A DNA stretch of 64,000 nt from an uncultured Actinomycetes bacterium (GCA_963736335.1 CAVTOC010000006.1:1122828-1186827); one strand, 5' to 3'; counted from the first letter of the stretch, positions 1-8,759 are shown. Made by a program: numbers and translations. The notes: a model not told the origin generated them from the sequence alone.

Positions 1-1582
1 GTCACTACGCGATCGTGTGCAACCTCCCCGGCCACTACGCGATGGGCATGCACCAGGACTTCAACGTGGTGCCCGCCGGCTCGACGCCGATCACGGTCGG
101 TCTCGGCGAGACGGATGCCACCCACATGTTCATCGACCTGTCCCAGCCGTATGCCCCCGAGGGCAAGGTCACGTTCATCATCACGAACCAGGGCGCCGAG
201 GATCACGAGTTCGTGGTCCTGCAGACCGACACCATGGCCGCGGACTTCCCGATCACCGGGTTCGAAGGCGAACCGAACCGCTTCAACGAAGACGCCAAGG
301 GCATCACCAACGTCGGGGAGACCGGCGATCCGGCGATGAAGCCGGGCACCTCCTTGATGCTCACGATCGACATGTCGGCCGGCCACTACGCCGTGGTCTG
401 CAACCTGAACGGTCACTACGCGATGGGCATGCACCAGGACTTCAACGTGGTGCCCGCCGGCTCGACGCCGATCACGGTCGGACTCGGCGAGACGGATGCC
501 ACCCACATGTTCATCGACCTGTCCCAGCCGTATGCCCCCGAGGGCAAGGTCACGTTCATCATCACGAACCAGGGCGCCGAGGATCACGAGTTCGTGGTCC
601 TGCAGACCGACACCATGGCCGCGGACTTCCCGATCACCGGGTTCGAAGGCGAACCGAACCGCTTCAACGAAGACGCCAAGGGCATCACCAACGTCGGGGA
701 GACCGGCGATCCTGCGATGAAGCCGGGCACCTCCTTGATGCTCACGATCGACATGTCGGCCGGCCACTACGCCGTGGTCTGCAACCTGAACGGTCACTAC
801 GCGATGGGCATGCACCAGGACTTCAACGTGGTGCCCGCCGGCTCGACGCCGATCACGGTCGGACTCGGCGAGACGGATGCCACCCACATGTTCATCGACC
901 TGTCCCAGCCGTATGCCCCCGAGGGCAAGGTCACGTTCATCATCACGAACCAGGGCGCCGAGGATCACGAGTTCGTGGTCCTGCAGACCGACACCATGGC
1001 CGCGGACTTCCCGATCACCGGGTTCGAAGGCGAACCGAACCGCTTCAACGAAGACGCCAAGGGCATCACCAACGTCGGGGAGACCGGCGATCCTGCGATG
1101 AAGCCGGGCACCTCCTTGATGCTCACGATCGACATGTCGGCCGGCCACTACGCCGTGGTCTGCAACCTGAACGGTCACTACGCGATGGGCATGCACCAGG
1201 ACTTCAACGTGGTGCCCGCCGGCTCGACGCCGATCACGGTCGGACTCGGCGAGACGGATGCGACCCACATGTTCATCGACCTGTCCCAGCCGTATGCCCC
1301 CGAGGGCAAGGTCACGTTCATCATCACGAACCAGGGCGCCGAGGATCACGAGTTCGTGGTCCTGCAGACCGACACCATGGCCGCGGACTTCCCGATCACC
1401 GGGTTCGAAGGCGAACCGAACCGCTTCAACGAAGACGCCAAGGGCATCACCAACGTCGGGGAGACCGGCGATCCTGCGATGAAGCCGGGCACCTCCTTGA
1501 TGCTCACGATCGACATGTCGGCCGGCCACTACGCCGTGGTCTGCAACCTGAACGGTCACTACGCGATGGGCATGCACCAGGA
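1..1582. repeat. 381-bp tandem repeat, more than 4 copies, over 99% identical
   Basis: Unit boundaries fall at about 40/421/802/1183/1564. The only differences I saw are 101 t vs 482 a, 332 g vs 713 t, and 881 c vs 1262 g. The last copy diverges after 1582. Confidence 0.9.
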
Positions 1583-1616
1583 CGTGTGGATCACCCCGGC
1601 CGCCGCCACCATCTGA
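1..1616 (+). CDS. Multi-domain cupredoxin (type-1 copper-like) repeat protein, 5' partial
   Basis: Frame 3 is open from the window edge to the TGA at 1614-1616. A 127-aa unit is repeated more than 4 times. Each unit has an EDHEF His and VVCNLNGHYAMGM (C-x4-H-x3-M, azurin-like ligand spacing), as in EfeO/Cupredoxin_1-type domains. Confidence 0.75.
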   Translation, partial: HYAIVCNLPGHYAMGMHQDFNVVPAGSTPITVGLGETDATHMFIDLSQPYAPEGKVTFIITNQGAEDHEFVVLQTDTMAADFPITGFEGEPNRFNEDAKGITNVGETGDPAMKPGTSLMLTIDMSAGHYAVVCNLNGHYAMGMHQDFNVVPAGSTPITVGLGETDATHMFIDLSQPYAPEGKVTFIITNQGAEDHEFVVLQTDTMAADFPITGFEGEPNRFNEDAKGITNVGETGDPAMKPGTSLMLTIDMSAGHYAVVCNLNGHYAMGMHQDFNVVPAGSTPITVGLGETDATHMFIDLSQPYAPEGKVTFIITNQGAEDHEFVVLQTDTMAADFPITGFEGEPNRFNEDAKGITNVGETGDPAMKPGTSLMLTIDMSAGHYAVVCNLNGHYAMGMHQDFNVVPAGSTPITVGLGETDATHMFIDLSQPYAPEGKVTFIITNQGAEDHEFVVLQTDTMAADFPITGFEGEPNRFNEDAKGITNVGETGDPAMKPGTSLMLTIDMSAGHYAVVCNLNGHYAMGMHQDVWITPAAATI

Positions 1617-3809: not shown

Positions 3810-3836
3810 CGACCGCCGCCCCCCGCAGCGGCAACC

Positions 3837-4910
3837 TCAGGTCAGCGCCAGCGCGGCCACCGCGTCGATGTCGTACTTCGTCGCGTTCCCCATGACGGCG
3901 ACCCCGACGCCACGGGTCGGGTAGATGCGGATCACGTTGAAGAAGCCCGCACCCCCGCCCAGGTGTTCGACGAACGGGGGATCGGCGTCTCGGGCGTTGG
4001 AGGGCCGGAACCATCCGAGCCCCAGGTCGAACCGTTTGCCGTCGATGCGGATCTCCCGCATGGCGTGCGCATCGGCGGCGCCGAGCAGACGAACGCCTGC
4101 AAGCTCGCCGTCACGCAGGTGCATCTGCACGAATCGTGCGGCGTCGGTCACCGTGCCGATCAGCCCGCCGTAGGCCTGACCATCCAACAGGAACCGGTTG
4201 AGCGACAGCCATCGGCCCGTCGGAGGGCCGATCACCCACCGGTGCAGCAGGTATCGCATCGGGCTCCGTCTCGGGTGATAGCCCGTCGCGGCGTGCGCTT
4301 TCATCTCGGGCGAGTACGCGAAACCCGTTGATCGCATCCCGAGCGGCTCCAGCACGTCGTGTCGGACCAGGTCCGTGAACGGTATGTCCGTGAGGTTGGC
4401 CATGGCTGCTCCCAGGACGAGCGTCCCGAGGTTCGAGTAGCTCGATCTGGTGCCCGGCTCGAACCGGAGCTTCCCGTGCTTGGAGAGCAAACCGTCGAGG
4501 AACGTGTCGGGGTCGGGACCGGCGTGATCCGGCGGGTGGATCCATCCGACCGGGATCGGGTTCGCCAGGCCGCCGCTGTGGGATAGGAGGTGGCGAGCCG
4601 TGATCTTCGCTGCTTCCGTTGACGGACGGAGATGGCGCATCTGAGCCACGTGCGGGGAGATCGGCGCGTCCAGGTCGAGCACCCCGCGTTCCACGAGCCG
4701 CATCGCCTCGGTCGCCGTCACGATCTTCGTCATGGAGAACCACGGACACACCATGTCCGGTGAGGCCGGCCGGTCGTCACGGATGTCGGCCATGCCCACC
4801 GCGACCGCATCGCGGACACCGTCGGGATCCACGACGGCCATCGCGATCCCGGGGACGCTTGTCCCCGCCGTCTCTCGGAGCCGATGCTGCAGGTTCGTTC
4901 CCGTCGACAT
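3837..4910 (-). CDS. Serine hydrolase, beta-lactamase/PBP family
   Basis: S-x-x-K motif FSMTKIV with a class C-like layout. Start placed at ATG 4910, preceded by GGAGG-N5. The maximal ORF reaches 4997. Confidence 0.75.
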   Translation of the reverse strand: MSTGTNLQHRLRETAGTSVPGIAMAVVDPDGVRDAVAVGMADIRDDRPASPDMVCPWFSMTKIVTATEAMRLVERGVLDLDAPISPHVAQMRHLRPSTEAAKITARHLLSHSGGLANPIPVGWIHPPDHAGPDPDTFLDGLLSKHGKLRFEPGTRSSYSNLGTLVLGAAMANLTDIPFTDLVRHDVLEPLGMRSTGFAYSPEMKAHAATGYHPRRSPMRYLLHRWVIGPPTGRWLSLNRFLLDGQAYGGLIGTVTDAARFVQMHLRDGELAGVRLLGAADAHAMREIRIDGKRFDLGLGWFRPSNARDADPPFVEHLGGGAGFFNVIRIYPTRGVGVAVMGNATKYDIDAVAALALT

Positions 4911-4968
4911 GACGGCCTCCGTATACCGCATGTTGCGGCCGGCCGCGACCGAGGCGACGATACCGGGC

Positions 4969-5940
4969 ATGGCGCGACGCGAGGGTCCCGCGGTCAAGTG
5001 CCGCTGCGGTTACCGCTCGTTCCGTCTCGACGACGAGGTGCGAGCGAGGCCCGTGGCCGTCGACCTCTGGTACCCGTCGCCGACGACCGCGTCGGAAACG
5101 CAGCACGACTATGGATTGGGCACGGGGCATGTCGTCGAGGACGCCCCCGTCGGCGACGAGGCGTTCCCGGTGATCGTGCTGTCGCACGGCGCGTTCGGGT
5201 CCGCGCGGAACTACGCCTGGATCGCTGAGTACCTGGCGCGACGCGGGTACGTGGTCTGCGGCGTGTCGCACTTCGGAGAGTCGCCTGTCTACGGCGTCGA
5301 GACGATCGATCCTTCGACCGTTCTCGATCCGAGCGACCGCGTGGTCGATTGTTCTTTCGCGCTTGACCGCGTGCTCGCCGGGGCGCTGCTCGAGAACGTG
5401 GATCCTTCACGGGTCGGCGCGCTGGGGCACTCGTCCGGAGGAGCGACCGCGATCGCGTTGGCGGGAGGGCGCTTCGATCCGGCCGCGATGGCTCGCTATT
5501 GCGCATCCGAAGAGGCCGCGGAGGATCGAGGATGCGCGTACGGCCGGCTCCCGGCTGCAGCACCTGCGAGACCACCGGCCCCGCGCTTGCACCACGACCC
5601 GCGGATCCGCGCGGTGGTCGCGCTCGATCCGGCGCTCGGTCCGGGTTTCGACCCGGACTCGTTGTCGGAGATCTCGATCCCTGTGCACGTGGTGGGCGCG
5701 GTCGACAACGACTTCCTACCGGCCGACGCCCACGCCGGCCGATACGCGGCGTTGATCCCCGGATGTTCGTTCACTCGACTGTCGGAAGGGGAAGGGCACT
5801 TCGTCTTCCTGAACGGATGCGATTCGGATCTCGAGGCGAACGGCATCCCCTTGTGCCGCGACCGTCCCGGCGTGGATCGCCGCGCCGTCCACGCCTCGCT
5901 CGGGCCGCTCATCGCCGGATCCTTCGACGCGAACCTCTGA
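4969..5940 (+). CDS. Alpha/beta hydrolase (dienelactone hydrolase / PAF-acetylhydrolase-like)
   Basis: VIVLSHGAFGSARNYAWIAEYLARRGYVV plus the nucleophile elbow GHSSGG. The 5' part of the 4732 ORF overlaps the divergent gene, so ATG 4969 was chosen. Confidence 0.65.
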   Translation: MARREGPAVKCRCGYRSFRLDDEVRARPVAVDLWYPSPTTASETQHDYGLGTGHVVEDAPVGDEAFPVIVLSHGAFGSARNYAWIAEYLARRGYVVCGVSHFGESPVYGVETIDPSTVLDPSDRVVDCSFALDRVLAGALLENVDPSRVGALGHSSGGATAIALAGGRFDPAAMARYCASEEAAEDRGCAYGRLPAAAPARPPAPRLHHDPRIRAVVALDPALGPGFDPDSLSEISIPVHVVGAVDNDFLPADAHAGRYAALIPGCSFTRLSEGEGHFVFLNGCDSDLEANGIPLCRDRPGVDRRAVHASLGPLIAGSFDANL

Positions 5941-5944
5941 CCTG

Positions 5945-6517
5945 CTAGGCGTGCCTGGCTTGCATCGGCGGTTCCGCGGTCTCTTTCGCGAACGTCGGCT
6001 GCTCGACGCCGTACAGGTGCGCCACGCGATGCCAGGTCTTCTCGCCGATCTCCGGATAGATCTGCCCTGCTTTGTTCAGCTCCTTCCGAAGCCCGTCGAG
6101 CACCTTCTTGGGATCGCCCCGCTTGTGCGCAGGGAGGGCCAGCACTTCCTCGATCTCTCTCCGGATCGAGGCGTACCAATCGGCGGCCTGCGCATGCCGT
6201 TCCGCGCGCTCGGCGAAGCGCAGGAACGTCTGGATGGCGGCGAGGACCGCGGCCAGGATGCTGATCGACCCGATCAAGAATCTCGCCCACCCGGGGAAGC
6301 TCTTCGCCGCGGACTCCGAAGCGGTTGATGCCATCGAAGCGAAGAGGCTCGTGCCGACGACCGTCGTGAAGATGACGACCGGGATCCCGAGGGCGAGGTT
6401 CCGTTTCTTGAGACCGGCAGCCAGGTAGTAGTGGGCGTGCTGGGCGGCGACGGCTCGCCTGCCCCAGTCCTGCGCGAGCTGCGTCTCTTCGTCGGTCCAC
6501 AGCATTGCCGAGCTCAT
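5945..6517 (-). CDS. SLATT-like two-TM effector-domain protein
   Basis: 190 aa starting at ATG 6517 (AAGGG RBS). AQHAHYYLAAGLKKRNLALGIPVVIFTTVV (TM1), then WARFLIGSISILAAVLAAIQTFL (TM2), then RFAERAERHAQAADWYASIRREIE. This layout matches SLATT domains. Confidence 0.6.
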   Translation of the reverse strand: MSSAMLWTDEETQLAQDWGRRAVAAQHAHYYLAAGLKKRNLALGIPVVIFTTVVGTSLFASMASTASESAAKSFPGWARFLIGSISILAAVLAAIQTFLRFAERAERHAQAADWYASIRREIEEVLALPAHKRGDPKKVLDGLRKELNKAGQIYPEIGEKTWHRVAHLYGVEQPTFAKETAEPPMQARHA

Positions 6518-6573
6518 GGTCTGCCCTTTGAGAGCGGGTGTGTGCACCCTAGACGTTCGGAAAGCGCCTGGAC

Positions 6574-6627
6574 CTAGGCATATGCCTAAGCGCGGGCCGG
6601 TGTCTCCACAACTAGGCGGGTGCCTAG
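6574..6627. promoter_or_regulatory. Two related palindromic operator-like sites in a divergent promoter region
   Basis: CTAGGCATATGCCTAA (6574-6589) and CTAGGCGGGTGCCTAG (6612-6627). They share CTAGGC-N4-GCCTA half sites, lie 38 bp centre to centre, and sit between the divergent starts at 6517 and 6676. Confidence 0.5.
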
Positions 6628-6675
6628 GGATTCGTTCGCGGATGCGCGGGACAGTCATCGACGGGTTGCAGGAAC

Positions 6676-8295
6676 GTGCAACCGACGAACGTGGGGGCCG
6701 CCGTGACGACGACGAAGCAGACCGACGAGCAGGTCGCCGGCGGGGTGCGCGGGGTCCCGGTCCTCATCGGGGCCTGCGTGGTGGTCCTCGTCGTCGCGGC
6801 TCTCGGGTTCAGTGCGTCCGGTGGCAACAATCGTGCCGGTCTGCTCCTGCTCTCCCTGATCATCTTCCTTGTGACGGCCGTTTGGTTCTGGCAGCACAAC
6901 CGGTTCCCCGCGTTGGATGCCCGTGGATCGACGCTGTTGATCCTCGCGCTCGTGGTCGGGCTCATCGGGCTCCTCCCCGTTCTGTACCTCGGGAACGCCG
7001 AGCGGATCTACGTCCTGAAGCTGGGAGCGATCGTCTTCCTCTCCCTCCTGCCGGGGTTGCTCTACCTCCAGTTCGTTGTGGTGAAGGGCCTCGGATTGCG
7101 CAGCGAATACGTCTTGGCCCTGCACCGGCTCCACATCGACCGCTACGAGAACCTGCCGACCCCACCCGAAGGCTCGTTGTTCTATCGGCCGGGTCCGCAG
7201 CCCCCCGGCGCGGGCAAGGACAACGTCTACCTGCGCCGGTTCGATTCCTATTACGGCCGGCCACACACACGGTCCGATGGCGTCGTCGTGCAGGCGGGCG
7301 TCGGGAACCTCTTACCCGTCCTGATCGCGACGATCGTGATCGCGACGGGGTGGACGCTGTTCCTTCAGCCCGAGTTCATCTCGGGCGTGCACCTGGAGCT
7401 CGGTGGGTTGGTCCTGGGAGGCCGGCCGGTGCTGCCCGTCGAGCCGCTCCGCTTCGCATTCCTGGGCGCGTACTTCTACTCGCTGGAGATGCTGACGCGC
7501 CGCTACTTCCAGGAGGACCTGAAGCCGAGTGCCTACCTGAATGCCGTGACTCGGATGCTCGGTTCCGCGCTCCTCGTTATCGCGATCGACGCGATCTGGC
7601 CCGATTCCATCTCGCCTGAGCAGGAGTTGGGCATCGCGTTCGTGATCGGCGTGTTCCCGCAGATCGGCGTCAAGGCGATCCACAACCTGATCGCCCTTCC
7701 GCTCAAGCCGCTGATCCCCAGTCTCGAGCGCGACTATCCGCTGAGCGACCTTGACGGTCTCAACGTGTGGTACGAGTCGCGACTGCTCGAGGTGGGCATC
7801 GAGGACATGCAGAACCTCGCCACGGTGAACCTGGTCGACGCGATCCTGCGGACCCGGGTGCCGGTCGACCGCTTGGTCGACTGGGTGGACCAAGCACATC
7901 TCTGCCTTCGGGTGAGCAACAAGGGAGAGCCATCCGATCGCGCGCGTCTTCGCCGTCTTGGCATCCGCACCGCCACCGACCTCGAGGACGCCTTCCAGCC
8001 GAGGTACGACTCGGGGACCTCCGGTCCTGCCGGCATCTCGGGCGAGGAACGAGCCGCGTTCCTCGCATCCCTCCAGCGCGTGCTCAACATGGACGACGGG
8101 TCGCCGAGCGTGACCGAGTCCGTGCGGCGAACGTTCTGCGGCGAGCCCAACCTGTTCCACGTGCGGTACTGGAAGAGCTACACGTCGATGCTGGAGAAGG
8201 ACAGCCACCAGAAGACGGAGCGGCCGATCCACGTAGGCGAGGCCGCGCCGAGACCGGTGGGGGCCGATCCCGGCCGCGGGCCGGCGATGGGGTGA
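6676..8295 (+). CDS. Polytopic membrane protein with a soluble C-terminal helical (HhH/DUF4332-like) region, function unknown
   Basis: GTG start. At least 6 hydrophobic helices in the first ~330 aa. The C-terminal part has RLLEVGIEDMQNLA and LRRLGIRTATDLEDA, which are helix-hairpin-helix-like motifs. Confidence 0.6.
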   Translation: MQPTNVGAAVTTTKQTDEQVAGGVRGVPVLIGACVVVLVVAALGFSASGGNNRAGLLLLSLIIFLVTAVWFWQHNRFPALDARGSTLLILALVVGLIGLLPVLYLGNAERIYVLKLGAIVFLSLLPGLLYLQFVVVKGLGLRSEYVLALHRLHIDRYENLPTPPEGSLFYRPGPQPPGAGKDNVYLRRFDSYYGRPHTRSDGVVVQAGVGNLLPVLIATIVIATGWTLFLQPEFISGVHLELGGLVLGGRPVLPVEPLRFAFLGAYFYSLEMLTRRYFQEDLKPSAYLNAVTRMLGSALLVIAIDAIWPDSISPEQELGIAFVIGVFPQIGVKAIHNLIALPLKPLIPSLERDYPLSDLDGLNVWYESRLLEVGIEDMQNLATVNLVDAILRTRVPVDRLVDWVDQAHLCLRVSNKGEPSDRARLRRLGIRTATDLEDAFQPRYDSGTSGPAGISGEERAAFLASLQRVLNMDDGSPSVTESVRRTFCGEPNLFHVRYWKSYTSMLEKDSHQKTERPIHVGEAAPRPVGADPGRGPAMG

Positions 8296-8321
8296 GGGAC
8301 GACAACGTTCCGACCCGACAT

Positions 8322-8759
8322 TCAGTCGTCCGGGATGTGGGAGCTGGTGACCCGCCGGTCGCGCAAGCGGACCTCGGTTCCGCGCCGCAACGAGTTCGGG
8401 ATCTCGGCGATCGCGTCGACGTGCGCGACGAGATCCTCGAGGACGTCCTCGCTCGCGTCGCCGTCGACCTCGACGTCGTATCCGATCGGCGTCGAGACCG
8501 CGGGCTCGCCGCGGTAGTCCGCGTCGACCTTCACGTGGACCCGTGAGAGCGTGATCCCTCGTGCCATCGCCTCGCGGTACAGATCGTTCGAGATGCAGGC
8601 GGCGACGGCGAGGTTCAGCAGCTGCCCGCCGTTGAACCCGAGCCCGTGACCGCCTGCGGACGCTGGGCGGTCGCTCACCAGGGTGAACGACCCCGCCCGT
8701 CCCAGCGCGGTCGGCCCGCCGTCCACGGTGTGCATGTCCACCCGATACGCGTCAGCCAT
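8322..8759 (-). CDS. OsmC/Ohr family peroxiredoxin-like protein
   Basis: GGHGLGFNGGQLLNLAVAACISNDL and 145 aa length are typical of the OsmC family. Confidence 0.75.
   Translation of the reverse strand: MADAYRVDMHTVDGGPTALGRAGSFTLVSDRPASAGGHGLGFNGGQLLNLAVAACISNDLYREAMARGITLSRVHVKVDADYRGEPAVSTPIGYDVEVDGDASEDVLEDLVAHVDAIAEIPNSLRRGTEVRLRDRRVTSSHIPDD

What the first reader, a model, noticed from the sequence alone, without database searches (positions are those of the whole stretch)
5945..8295. Orphan SLATT-like 2TM gene divergent from a 539-aa polytopic membrane protein with an HhH-like tail
**What the sequence shows.** The 190-aa product of 5945-6517 has the SLATT layout: a helical N-terminus, two closely spaced TM helices, then a charged helix (RFAERAERHAQAADWYASIRREIE).

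**Established knowledge.** SLATT domains are predicted membrane-disrupting effectors. They normally pair with SMODS/CD-NTase, SLOG, TIR or retron reverse-transcriptase genes.

**What is unusual here.** None of those partners is nearby. The only partner is the divergently transcribed 6676-8295 gene. It has at least 6 TM helices and a cytoplasmic C-terminal region with two helix-hairpin-helix-like motifs (RLLEVGIEDMQNLA and LRRLGIRTATDLEDA).

**Inference.** The pair could be a two-component membrane effector/sensor module of a kind not catalogued. It could equally be a housekeeping membrane pair.
Basis: partly seen in the sequence, partly recalled or inferred. Interest (0 to 1): 0.6.

Follow-up and report, generated by a model that had tools for sequence, protein, structure and literature searches.

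The report
Lone SLATT gene beside unrelated membrane gene
The small gene is a genuine SLATT-type two-helix membrane protein with none of its usual partners, but the large membrane gene beside it is a recent single-gene insertion found almost nowhere else next to a SLATT gene, so the two are neighbours by accident and not a new two-part system.

Summary
Both genes exist as described. The 190-aa product (5945-6517, minus strand) is a SLATT_4 protein: NCBIfam 102 bits against a cut-off of 55. The 539-aa product (6676-8295) belongs to a large unnamed family with about 8 membrane helices and a cytoplasmic tail containing an HhH-like fold.

The proposed pairing fails its own test.
- Of 80 genome loci with a homologue of the large gene, only one has a SLATT neighbour, and that one is a 95%-identical relative.
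- The large gene occurs in 3 of 294 genomes of the class, SLATT in 54.
- Three assemblies whose SLATT is 90% identical have SLATT directly beside OsmC. In them the 1.7-kb block 6635-8348 is cleanly missing.
- One relative has the large gene without SLATT, and another has SLATT without it.

SLATT belongs to a "solo" clade. Its sister clades sit in cyclase–SLATT–patatin–SLATT cassettes. No SMODS or TIR gene is in the genome.

One link remains. Each gene has its own copy of a rare palindrome, CTAGGC-N4-GCCTAG, which has four sites in 3.3 Mb. Another copy sits upstream of a distant patatin operon, and a two-mismatch variant lies upstream of a small LuxR/GerE-type regulator gene. Shared regulation within this genus is therefore possible but unproven.

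The parts
5945..6517 (-). Stand-alone SLATT_4 gene (190 aa, two membrane helices)
   Evidence: NCBIfam NF033632 at 102 bits, cut-off 55. PADLOC 2TM effector at 1.6e-15. AF2 hairpin model, pLDDT 86.7. dN/dS 0.10-0.14 against close relatives.
6574..6589 (.). SLATT-proximal palindrome CTAGGCATATGCCTAA
   Evidence: One of only four sites with at most 1 mismatch to CTAGGC-N4-GCCTAG in the 3.3-Mb genome. It is kept upstream of SLATT in relatives that lack the large gene (L103-L105) and stays with SLATT in L107.
6612..6627 (.). Palindrome proximal to the large gene, CTAGGCGGGTGCCTAG (perfect)
   Evidence: It stays with the large gene where an IS element separates the two genes (L107). A variant precedes the M15-peptidase and large-gene string in G001 (L003/L005). 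It is degenerate in L104.
6676..8295 (+). 539-aa protein of an unnamed family: about 8 membrane helices plus an acidic cytoplasmic domain with an (HhH)2-like fold
   Evidence: At least 722 homologue clusters, nearly all without a Pfam family. Alignment A1 shows invariant motifs. AF2 model. No whole-fold match in PDB or BFVD. Net charge of the C-terminal domain about -6. dN/dS 0.10.
6635..8348 (.). 1.7-kb single-gene block present here and cleanly absent in close relatives
   Evidence: blastn of the window against L103-L105: window 8349/8350 joins to about 6592-6634. Junction alignment. No target-site duplication or terminal repeats were found.
8322..8759 (-). OsmC-like gene, the flank that abuts SLATT directly in relatives without the large gene
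   Evidence: Pfam OsmC 3.7e-13. Gene tables of L104/L105.
4732..5940 (+). Alpha/beta hydrolase gene convergent on SLATT. It makes SLATT monocistronic and is itself part of a second variable block.
   Evidence: Pfam hits. Window 3813-5944 is absent in L103-L105.

Best explanation
Two unrelated accessory genes have been brought side by side by a recent insertion or loss of a single gene.

**SLATT.** The SLATT gene is a minimal, self-contained member of a 'solo' clade of SLATT_4, with no room for a sensor domain. By analogy with SLATT effectors of CBASS, retron and DRT systems (an inference, not shown here), it would insert as a helical hairpin, assemble, and disturb the membrane when made or activated. 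Its control here is most likely transcriptional, through the rare palindrome in front of it.

**Large gene.** The 539-aa protein is an independent membrane protein of a widespread unnamed family, with an invariant Arg in the seventh membrane helix and an acidic HhH-like cytoplasmic domain. It is most likely a transporter-like or scaffold-type membrane protein whose tail binds protein, not DNA. It reached this genus by horizontal transfer and landed between OsmC and SLATT.
For: - Of 80 genome loci holding a homologue of the large gene, one has a SLATT nearby (tblastn and phmmer). It is from the 95%-identical relative G010. A Pfam scan of 73 upstream and 73 downstream neighbours shows mixed metabolic genes, and no neighbour cluster recurs in more than 8 loci.
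- In the class, the large gene is in 3 of 294 genomes, all in one genus, and SLATT is in 54 of 294. G001 has the large gene without SLATT. G006 has SLATT without the large gene.
- Three independent assemblies with a 90%-identical SLATT have OsmC directly followed by SLATT, with window 6635-8348 missing. Another assembly has an IS element between the two genes and a truncated large gene.
- More distant solo-clade SLATT genes lie in unrelated contexts.
- In the tree, the window's SLATT falls in a starred clade (97/100) of 14 rows, 13 of them without an adjacent patatin gene.
- Both genes are under purifying selection.
Against: - Each gene carries its own copy of the same rare palindrome, so they may be switched together in this genus.
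- The adjacency persists in at least three assemblies: the window, G010 and L106.
- No experiment bears on either protein. Physical interaction could not be tested because no multimer prediction was available.
- The role assigned to the large protein is weakly founded. It rests on topology, conservation and charge only.
Confidence: 0.75

Rival explanations
1. The two genes belong to one genus-specific regulon and are switched by the same regulator, a small LuxR/GerE-type protein that would bind CTAGGC-N4-GCCTAG. The regulon would also contain the distant patatin–SLATT-B operon, its divergent cyclase gene, and the regulator gene itself with the M4 peptidase gene next to it. On this reading SLATT and the large protein act in one membrane-directed response without being an exclusive pair.
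For: - The genome has only four sites with at most 1 mismatch. Two lie in this intergenic region, one lies 34 bp upstream of the patatin gene (C6:618567), and one lies just upstream of a 275-aa ORF (C6:1114292).
- A 2-mismatch variant lies 66 bp upstream of the GerE-type gene, in this genome and in L103-L105.
- The regulator is present in exactly the four genomes of the genus that have perfect sites, and in all three that have SLATT.
- In G006 the regulator gene lies directly upstream of SLATT.
- In G001 the motif precedes the M15-peptidase, large gene and 275-aa-homologue string.
Against: - No binding or expression data exist.
- The sample is 13 genomes of one genus, several of them incomplete.
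- In G006 no motif was found between the regulator gene and SLATT.
- G005, G009 and G001 have motif-like sites but no detected regulator.
- The motif is not seen outside the genus.
Confidence: 0.2
2. The pair is a true two-component effector/sensor module: the large membrane protein senses a signal and gates the SLATT pore.
For: Divergent arrangement with a short shared control region. Both are membrane proteins. The adjacency is kept in G010 and L106.
Against: Co-conservation fails in every test outside near-identical relatives. SLATT is kept intact and under purifying selection without the large gene.
Confidence: 0.04
3. The solo SLATT works in trans with the patatin–SLATT-B operon and a class III cyclase elsewhere in the genome. 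On this reading it is the displaced first SLATT of the cyclase–SLATT–patatin–SLATT cassette seen in related genera.
For: - The cassette is found in 12 of 30 loci of relatives.
- This genome has patatin plus SLATT-B beside a cyclase gene but no first SLATT there.
- The same palindrome lies in front of both loci.
- SLATT and SLATT-B co-occur in 32 genomes against 11.4 expected.
Against: - Much of the co-occurrence comes from genomes where both genes sit in one cassette.
- By my tally of the tables, about half of the solo-clade genomes lack SLATT-B.
- The solo clade is a separate, well-supported branch.
- The genome holds many class III cyclase genes, so a cyclase nearby means little.
Confidence: 0.1

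Closest known systems
SLATT_4 (NCBIfam NF033632 / Pfam PF18186), the two-helix membrane effector domains of CBASS, retron, RADAR and DRT/UG systems
   Same: The NCBIfam model matches over residues 15-164 of 190 at 102 bits. The layout is the same: helix, two membrane helices, charged helix. The literature treats SLATT proteins as mobile, exchangeable effector or accessory modules (PMC9226505; bioRxiv 10.64898/2026.04.29.721553).
   Different: No nucleotide-generating or reverse-transcriptase partner lies in cis, and the genome has no SMODS or TIR_2 gene. The gene sits among ordinary metabolic genes. Its score is below the Pfam cut-off.
Cyclase–SLATT–patatin–SLATT cassettes of related genera (resembling Pycsar and CBASS)
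   Same: The first SLATT of these cassettes is the nearest sister group of the window's SLATT, at 38-45% identity. The cassette cyclases match PADLOC PycC models at 1e-14 to 1e-19, and the patatin genes match CBASS phospholipase effector models.
   Different: The window's gene belongs to the clade without adjacent patatin or cyclase genes. Whether these cassettes are defence systems is itself untested.
(HhH)2 domains: RadA/Rad51 N-terminal domain, TfoX_C, ComEA, DUF4332
   Same: Two L-x3-G-I-x-T/D-x2-D/N-L motifs. There is a local Foldseek match to the RadA N-terminal domain and a weak TfoX_C hit on the family consensus.
   Different: No HMM reaches significance. The domain is net acidic, with a family median of -7. 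This argues against binding to the DNA backbone. It is fused to an 8-helix membrane body that has no structural relative.

Membership tests
SLATT_4 (NF033632 / PF18186) | Profile score above the curated cut-off | tested here: met
   NCBIfam 102 bits against 55. The Pfam model alone gives 19.3 bits against 27, which is not met. Close homologues are named 'SLATT domain-containing protein' by NCBI, and some pass PF18186.
SLATT_4 (NF033632 / PF18186) | Two closely spaced membrane helices flanked by cytoplasmic helices | tested here: met
   Hydropathy peaks at 41-63 and 77-101. The AF2 model has helices 9-65 and 76-127 forming a hairpin.
SLATT-containing conflict systems (CBASS, SLOG, retron/DRT, TIR) | A signal-generating or sensing partner (SMODS/CD-NTase, SLOG, reverse transcriptase, TIR) in the same operon | tested here: not met
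   The neighbours are a hydrolase, beta-lactamase, MFS, OsmC and others. The genome has no SMODS or TIR_2 match, and its one RVT_1 match is on contig C5. SLOG was not searched genome-wide.
SLATT-containing conflict systems | Membrane disruption or toxicity on activation | not testable with these tools
   Needs expression and membrane-potential assays.
   1 of 80 loci. 3 against 54 of 294 genomes, with 2 shared. SLATT occurs without the large gene at the same site in L103-L105.
HhH / DUF4332 domains | Match to a Pfam HhH-clan model | tested here: not met
   No hit at E up to 10 for the C-terminal 200 aa. The consensus gives only TfoX_C at E 0.15.
HhH / DUF4332 domains | (HhH)2 fold | tested here: inconclusive
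   Local Foldseek match to the RadA N-terminal domain, probability about 1 but E 0.5 and TM about 0.2.
Pycsar / CBASS effectors | Cyclic-nucleotide-binding domain or a cognate cyclase in cis | tested here: not met
   The SLATT model covers residues 15-164 of 190, which leaves no room for a sensor domain. The nearest class III cyclase homologue starts about 11 kb from SLATT, and such genes are numerous in this genome.

The most novel reading that the evidence does not exclude
SLATT, the 539-aa membrane protein and the distant patatin–SLATT-B/cyclase locus would be dispersed parts of one genus-specific regulon. A small LuxR/GerE-type regulator would control them through CTAGGC-N4-GCCTAG operators. 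This would be a membrane-attack or abortive-infection-type response whose parts are wired together by shared operators instead of an operon. New genes such as the large membrane protein would be recruited by landing next to an operator copy.
Probability: 0.15. Interest if true: 0.6.

Novelty: new member of a known kind. Interest (0 to 1): 0.3.

Why it matters
- It removes a false lead: divergent adjacency to a SLATT gene does not by itself mark a new defence module.
- It shows that a sizeable clade of SLATT_4 proteins lives without any cis partner. SLATT is in about 18% of genomes in this class (54 of 294), a count that includes cassette-borne homologues. This raises the question of what triggers the partnerless ones.
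- It flags a widespread, strongly conserved, unnamed membrane protein family with no structural relative.
- It flags cyclase–SLATT–patatin–SLATT cassettes as candidates for cyclic-nucleotide defence systems in uncultured Actinomycetota.

Tried and rejected
**Searches on the large protein that found nothing useful**
- A profile search against PDB sequences gave only noise.
- Foldseek against PDB and BFVD gave no whole-fold match.
- A tblastn against phages found nothing. Against plasmids it found two weak megaplasmid hits in ordinary contexts.
- Pfam on its C-terminal 200 aa alone gave no hit.

**Other dead ends**
- A search for target-site duplications or terminal repeats around the 1.7-kb block found none.
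- The promoter and terminator consensus scan found nothing, as expected for high-GC DNA.
- Foldseek of the SLATT model returned only generic helical hairpins.
- The first literature search for 'SLATT' returned papers on slatted floors. Burroughs et al. 2015 could not be fetched.

**Ideas considered and rejected**
- DNA tethering by the HhH-like tail: the domain is acidic.
- The reversed-genome control for the palindrome: not a valid control, because CTAG is specifically depleted.

Full report
**1. What is there**

The window is high-GC DNA, about 66-69% around the finding. The nearest public relatives are uncultured Actinomycetes MAGs.

ORF 5945-6517 (minus strand, 190 aa) and ORF 6676-8295 (plus strand, GTG start, 539 aa) are both present. 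They diverge across 158 bp. An alpha/beta hydrolase gene (4732-5940, plus strand) ends 5 bp from the SLATT stop codon on the opposite strand, so SLATT is monocistronic.

**2. The small gene is a SLATT protein**

- NCBIfam NF033632 (SLATT_4) matches residues 15-164 at E 2.6e-29 and 102 bits, cut-off 55.
- The Pfam SLATT_4 model gives only 19.3 bits, below its 27-bit cut-off.
- PADLOC's CBASS '2TM effector' model PDLC00712 gives 1.6e-15.
- Hydropathy shows two membrane stretches, at 41-63 and 77-101.
- An AF2 model built on 21 homologues (pLDDT 86.7) shows two long helices forming a hairpin, followed by two short helices. It has no meaningful PDB match.
- The family is conserved along its whole length, and public sources name relatives 'SLATT domain-containing protein'.
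- There is no room for a separate sensor domain.

**3. The large gene**

No Pfam, NCBIfam or PADLOC model matches it. It has at least 722 homologue clusters across Actinomycetota, Chloroflexota, Acidobacteriota, Bacteroidota, Gemmatimonadota and others. Nearly all of them lack a Pfam family and are labelled hypothetical.

The alignment shows very strong motifs in the second half:
- RRYFQDDLK
- an invariant Arg293 in a membrane helix
- AFxIGVFP
- YPLSDLDGLNIWYESRLLEEGIEDMQNLA
- RLVDWVDQ
- LRRLGIRTATDLED
- EPNLYHVRxWK

The AF2 model (pLDDT 78, pTM 0.74) gives about 8 membrane helices and a helical domain at 345-515. Lys and Arg counts in the loops place both termini in the cytoplasm.

Foldseek finds no whole-fold relative in PDB or BFVD. 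Its only local match is the (HhH)2 N-terminal domain of RadA/Rad51. The family consensus weakly touches TfoX_C. However, the domain is net acidic (median -7 across the family, and -6 for the first HhH-like unit), so I consider non-specific DNA binding unlikely.

**4. The pairing test**

*From the side of the large gene.*
- A scan of one genome per species returned 172 confirmed loci, and the best 80 were fetched with 6-kb flanks.
- tblastn and phmmer with the window's SLATT find a SLATT only in L004, which is the 95%-identical relative G010.
- All-against-all clustering of ORFs in these loci finds no neighbour family in more than 8 loci, and that one is a Nocardia-specific syntenic group.
- Pfam scans of 73 upstream and 73 downstream neighbours give a mixed bag of metabolic genes. 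The largest recurring hit is LysM in 7 loci.

*From the side of whole genomes.*
- Among 61 relatives the large gene is in 3 and SLATT in 10. They coincide only in G000 and G010.
- Across 294 genomes of the class the large gene is in 3, all of one genus, and SLATT is in 54.
- G001 has the large gene (73% identity) behind an M15-type peptidase gene and has no SLATT.
- G006 has SLATT (66% identity) and no large gene.

*At the same site in close relatives.*
- Three independent assemblies carry a 90%-identical SLATT (L103-L105) in the same gene order: ArsR, AHSA1, 3-dmu-9_3-mt, OsmC. In them SLATT follows OsmC directly.
- blastn shows that window 6635-8348, which is the large gene plus about 40-50 bp on each side, is cleanly absent. 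No target duplication or terminal repeats mark its ends.
- L106 has the pair as in the window.
- L107 has an IS element (rve integrase) between the two genes, and its large gene is cut to 409 aa.

Both genes are under purifying selection, with dN/dS of 0.10-0.14 against close relatives. SLATT therefore persists intact without the large gene.

**5. Where the SLATT comes from**

I fetched 30 loci around SLATT homologues from relatives and metagenomes.
- In 12 of them a patatin-like phospholipase (Pfam 1e-26 to 1e-37) immediately follows the SLATT, often with overlapping stop and start codons.
- 8 have a class III nucleotide cyclase close by.
- Many have a second, distant two-helix paralogue, here called SLATT-B.
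- The cyclases match PADLOC PycC models at 1e-14 to 1e-19, and the patatins match CBASS phospholipase effector models.

A maximum-likelihood tree places the window's SLATT in a well-supported clade (97/100) of 14 rows. Thirteen of them have no adjacent patatin gene. The cassette SLATTs are the neighbouring branches. Solo-clade members sit in unrelated contexts, such as Ku/DUF2127/AmtB, NUDIX/PLP enzymes, and Mut7-C.

The genome has no SMODS or TIR_2 match, and its one reverse-transcriptase match is on another contig. So 'orphan' is correct, and it is a property of a whole clade.

**6. A residual link: a shared operator**

The intergenic region holds CTAGGCATATGCCTAA (6574) and CTAGGCGGGTGCCTAG (6612). 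The genome has only four sites with at most one mismatch to CTAGGC-N4-GCCTAG. The other two are:
- C6:618567, 34 bp upstream of a patatin gene. That gene is followed by SLATT-B and is divergent from a 1154-aa zinc-ribbon/cyclase/STAND gene, 512 kb from the window's SLATT.
- C6:1114292, just upstream of a 275-aa ORF.

A two-mismatch variant lies 66 bp upstream of a 138-aa LuxR/GerE-type regulator gene (C6:1112198-1112614). The same arrangement is seen in L103-L105.

Each gene of the pair keeps its own copy of the palindrome:
- The SLATT-side site survives in L103-L105.
- In L107 the IS element lies between the two sites.
- In G001 a variant precedes the M15-peptidase, large gene and 275-aa-homologue string.

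The regulator gene is present in exactly the four genomes of the genus that have perfect palindromes, and in all three that have SLATT. In G006 it is the gene directly upstream of SLATT.

This suggests, but does not show, that the two genes are co-regulated members of a small, genus-specific regulon. The motif is not seen outside the genus, the sample is small, and some genomes have sites without a detected regulator.

**7. Mechanism, with the status of each step**

- Shown: family membership of SLATT, membrane topology by prediction, independence of the two genes in evolution, purifying selection, and rarity and placement of the palindromes.
- Inferred from the literature on SLATT proteins (PMC9226505; bioRxiv 10.64898/2026.04.29.721553; my recollection of Burroughs et al. 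2015, which could not be fetched): SLATT acts by disturbing the membrane when activated.
- Inferred here: control is transcriptional through the palindrome, and the 539-aa protein is an independent transporter-like or scaffold membrane protein whose acidic tail binds protein.

**8. Verdict**

The proposed two-component module is not supported. What remains is a new member of a known kind, a partnerless SLATT_4, lying next to a member of an uncharacterised but widespread membrane protein family. The shared-operator regulon and the cyclase–SLATT–patatin–SLATT cassettes of relatives are the leads worth following.

Noticed in passing
L096:5486-9313 (+), L155:4165-8102 (-), L156:5941-8335 (+), L149/L150, L095; variant in L097:801-7615 (-): A conserved cassette in related genera: class III nucleotide cyclase (PADLOC PycC-like), SLATT, patatin phospholipase, and a second distant two-helix paralogue. 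It is a candidate cyclic-nucleotide defence system that combines parts resembling Pycsar and CBASS. I found no description of it in the library searched.
   Followed up: partly
own genome C6:616769-622077 (outside the window): A patatin plus SLATT-B operon is divergent from a 1154-aa zinc-ribbon/cyclase/STAND gene. The same rare palindrome lies in the shared intergenic region. The first SLATT of the usual cassette is missing here.
   Followed up: partly
window 6574-6627; own genome C6:1112680 and C6:1114292: The CTAGGC-N4-GCCTAG palindromes form a tiny set in front of accessory genes and of a LuxR/GerE-type regulator gene. That regulator co-occurs with perfect sites in four genomes of the genus. 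In other species of the genus the extended form aACTAGGCAnnTGCCTAGGGA lies in other intergenic regions (L162, L163, L176).
   Followed up: partly
window 3813-5944: The block holding the beta-lactamase-like and alpha/beta hydrolase genes is also absent in L103-L105. SLATT therefore sits between two independently variable blocks.
   Followed up: partly
L107:1670-2182: In one metagenome assembly an IS element (rve integrase) has inserted between the two palindromes, and the large gene is shortened to 409 aa.
   Followed up: no
L054, L058, L063, L065, L069, L072, L074 (Nocardia loci); L003/L005 (G001): In Nocardia the homologue of the large gene is preceded by a small divergent LysM protein, and in G001 by an M15-type peptidase. 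Both are cell-wall related and give a weak hint to the family's role.
   Followed up: no
window 1-1616: A gene built of near-identical 381-bp cupredoxin-like repeats runs off the window's start.
   Followed up: no
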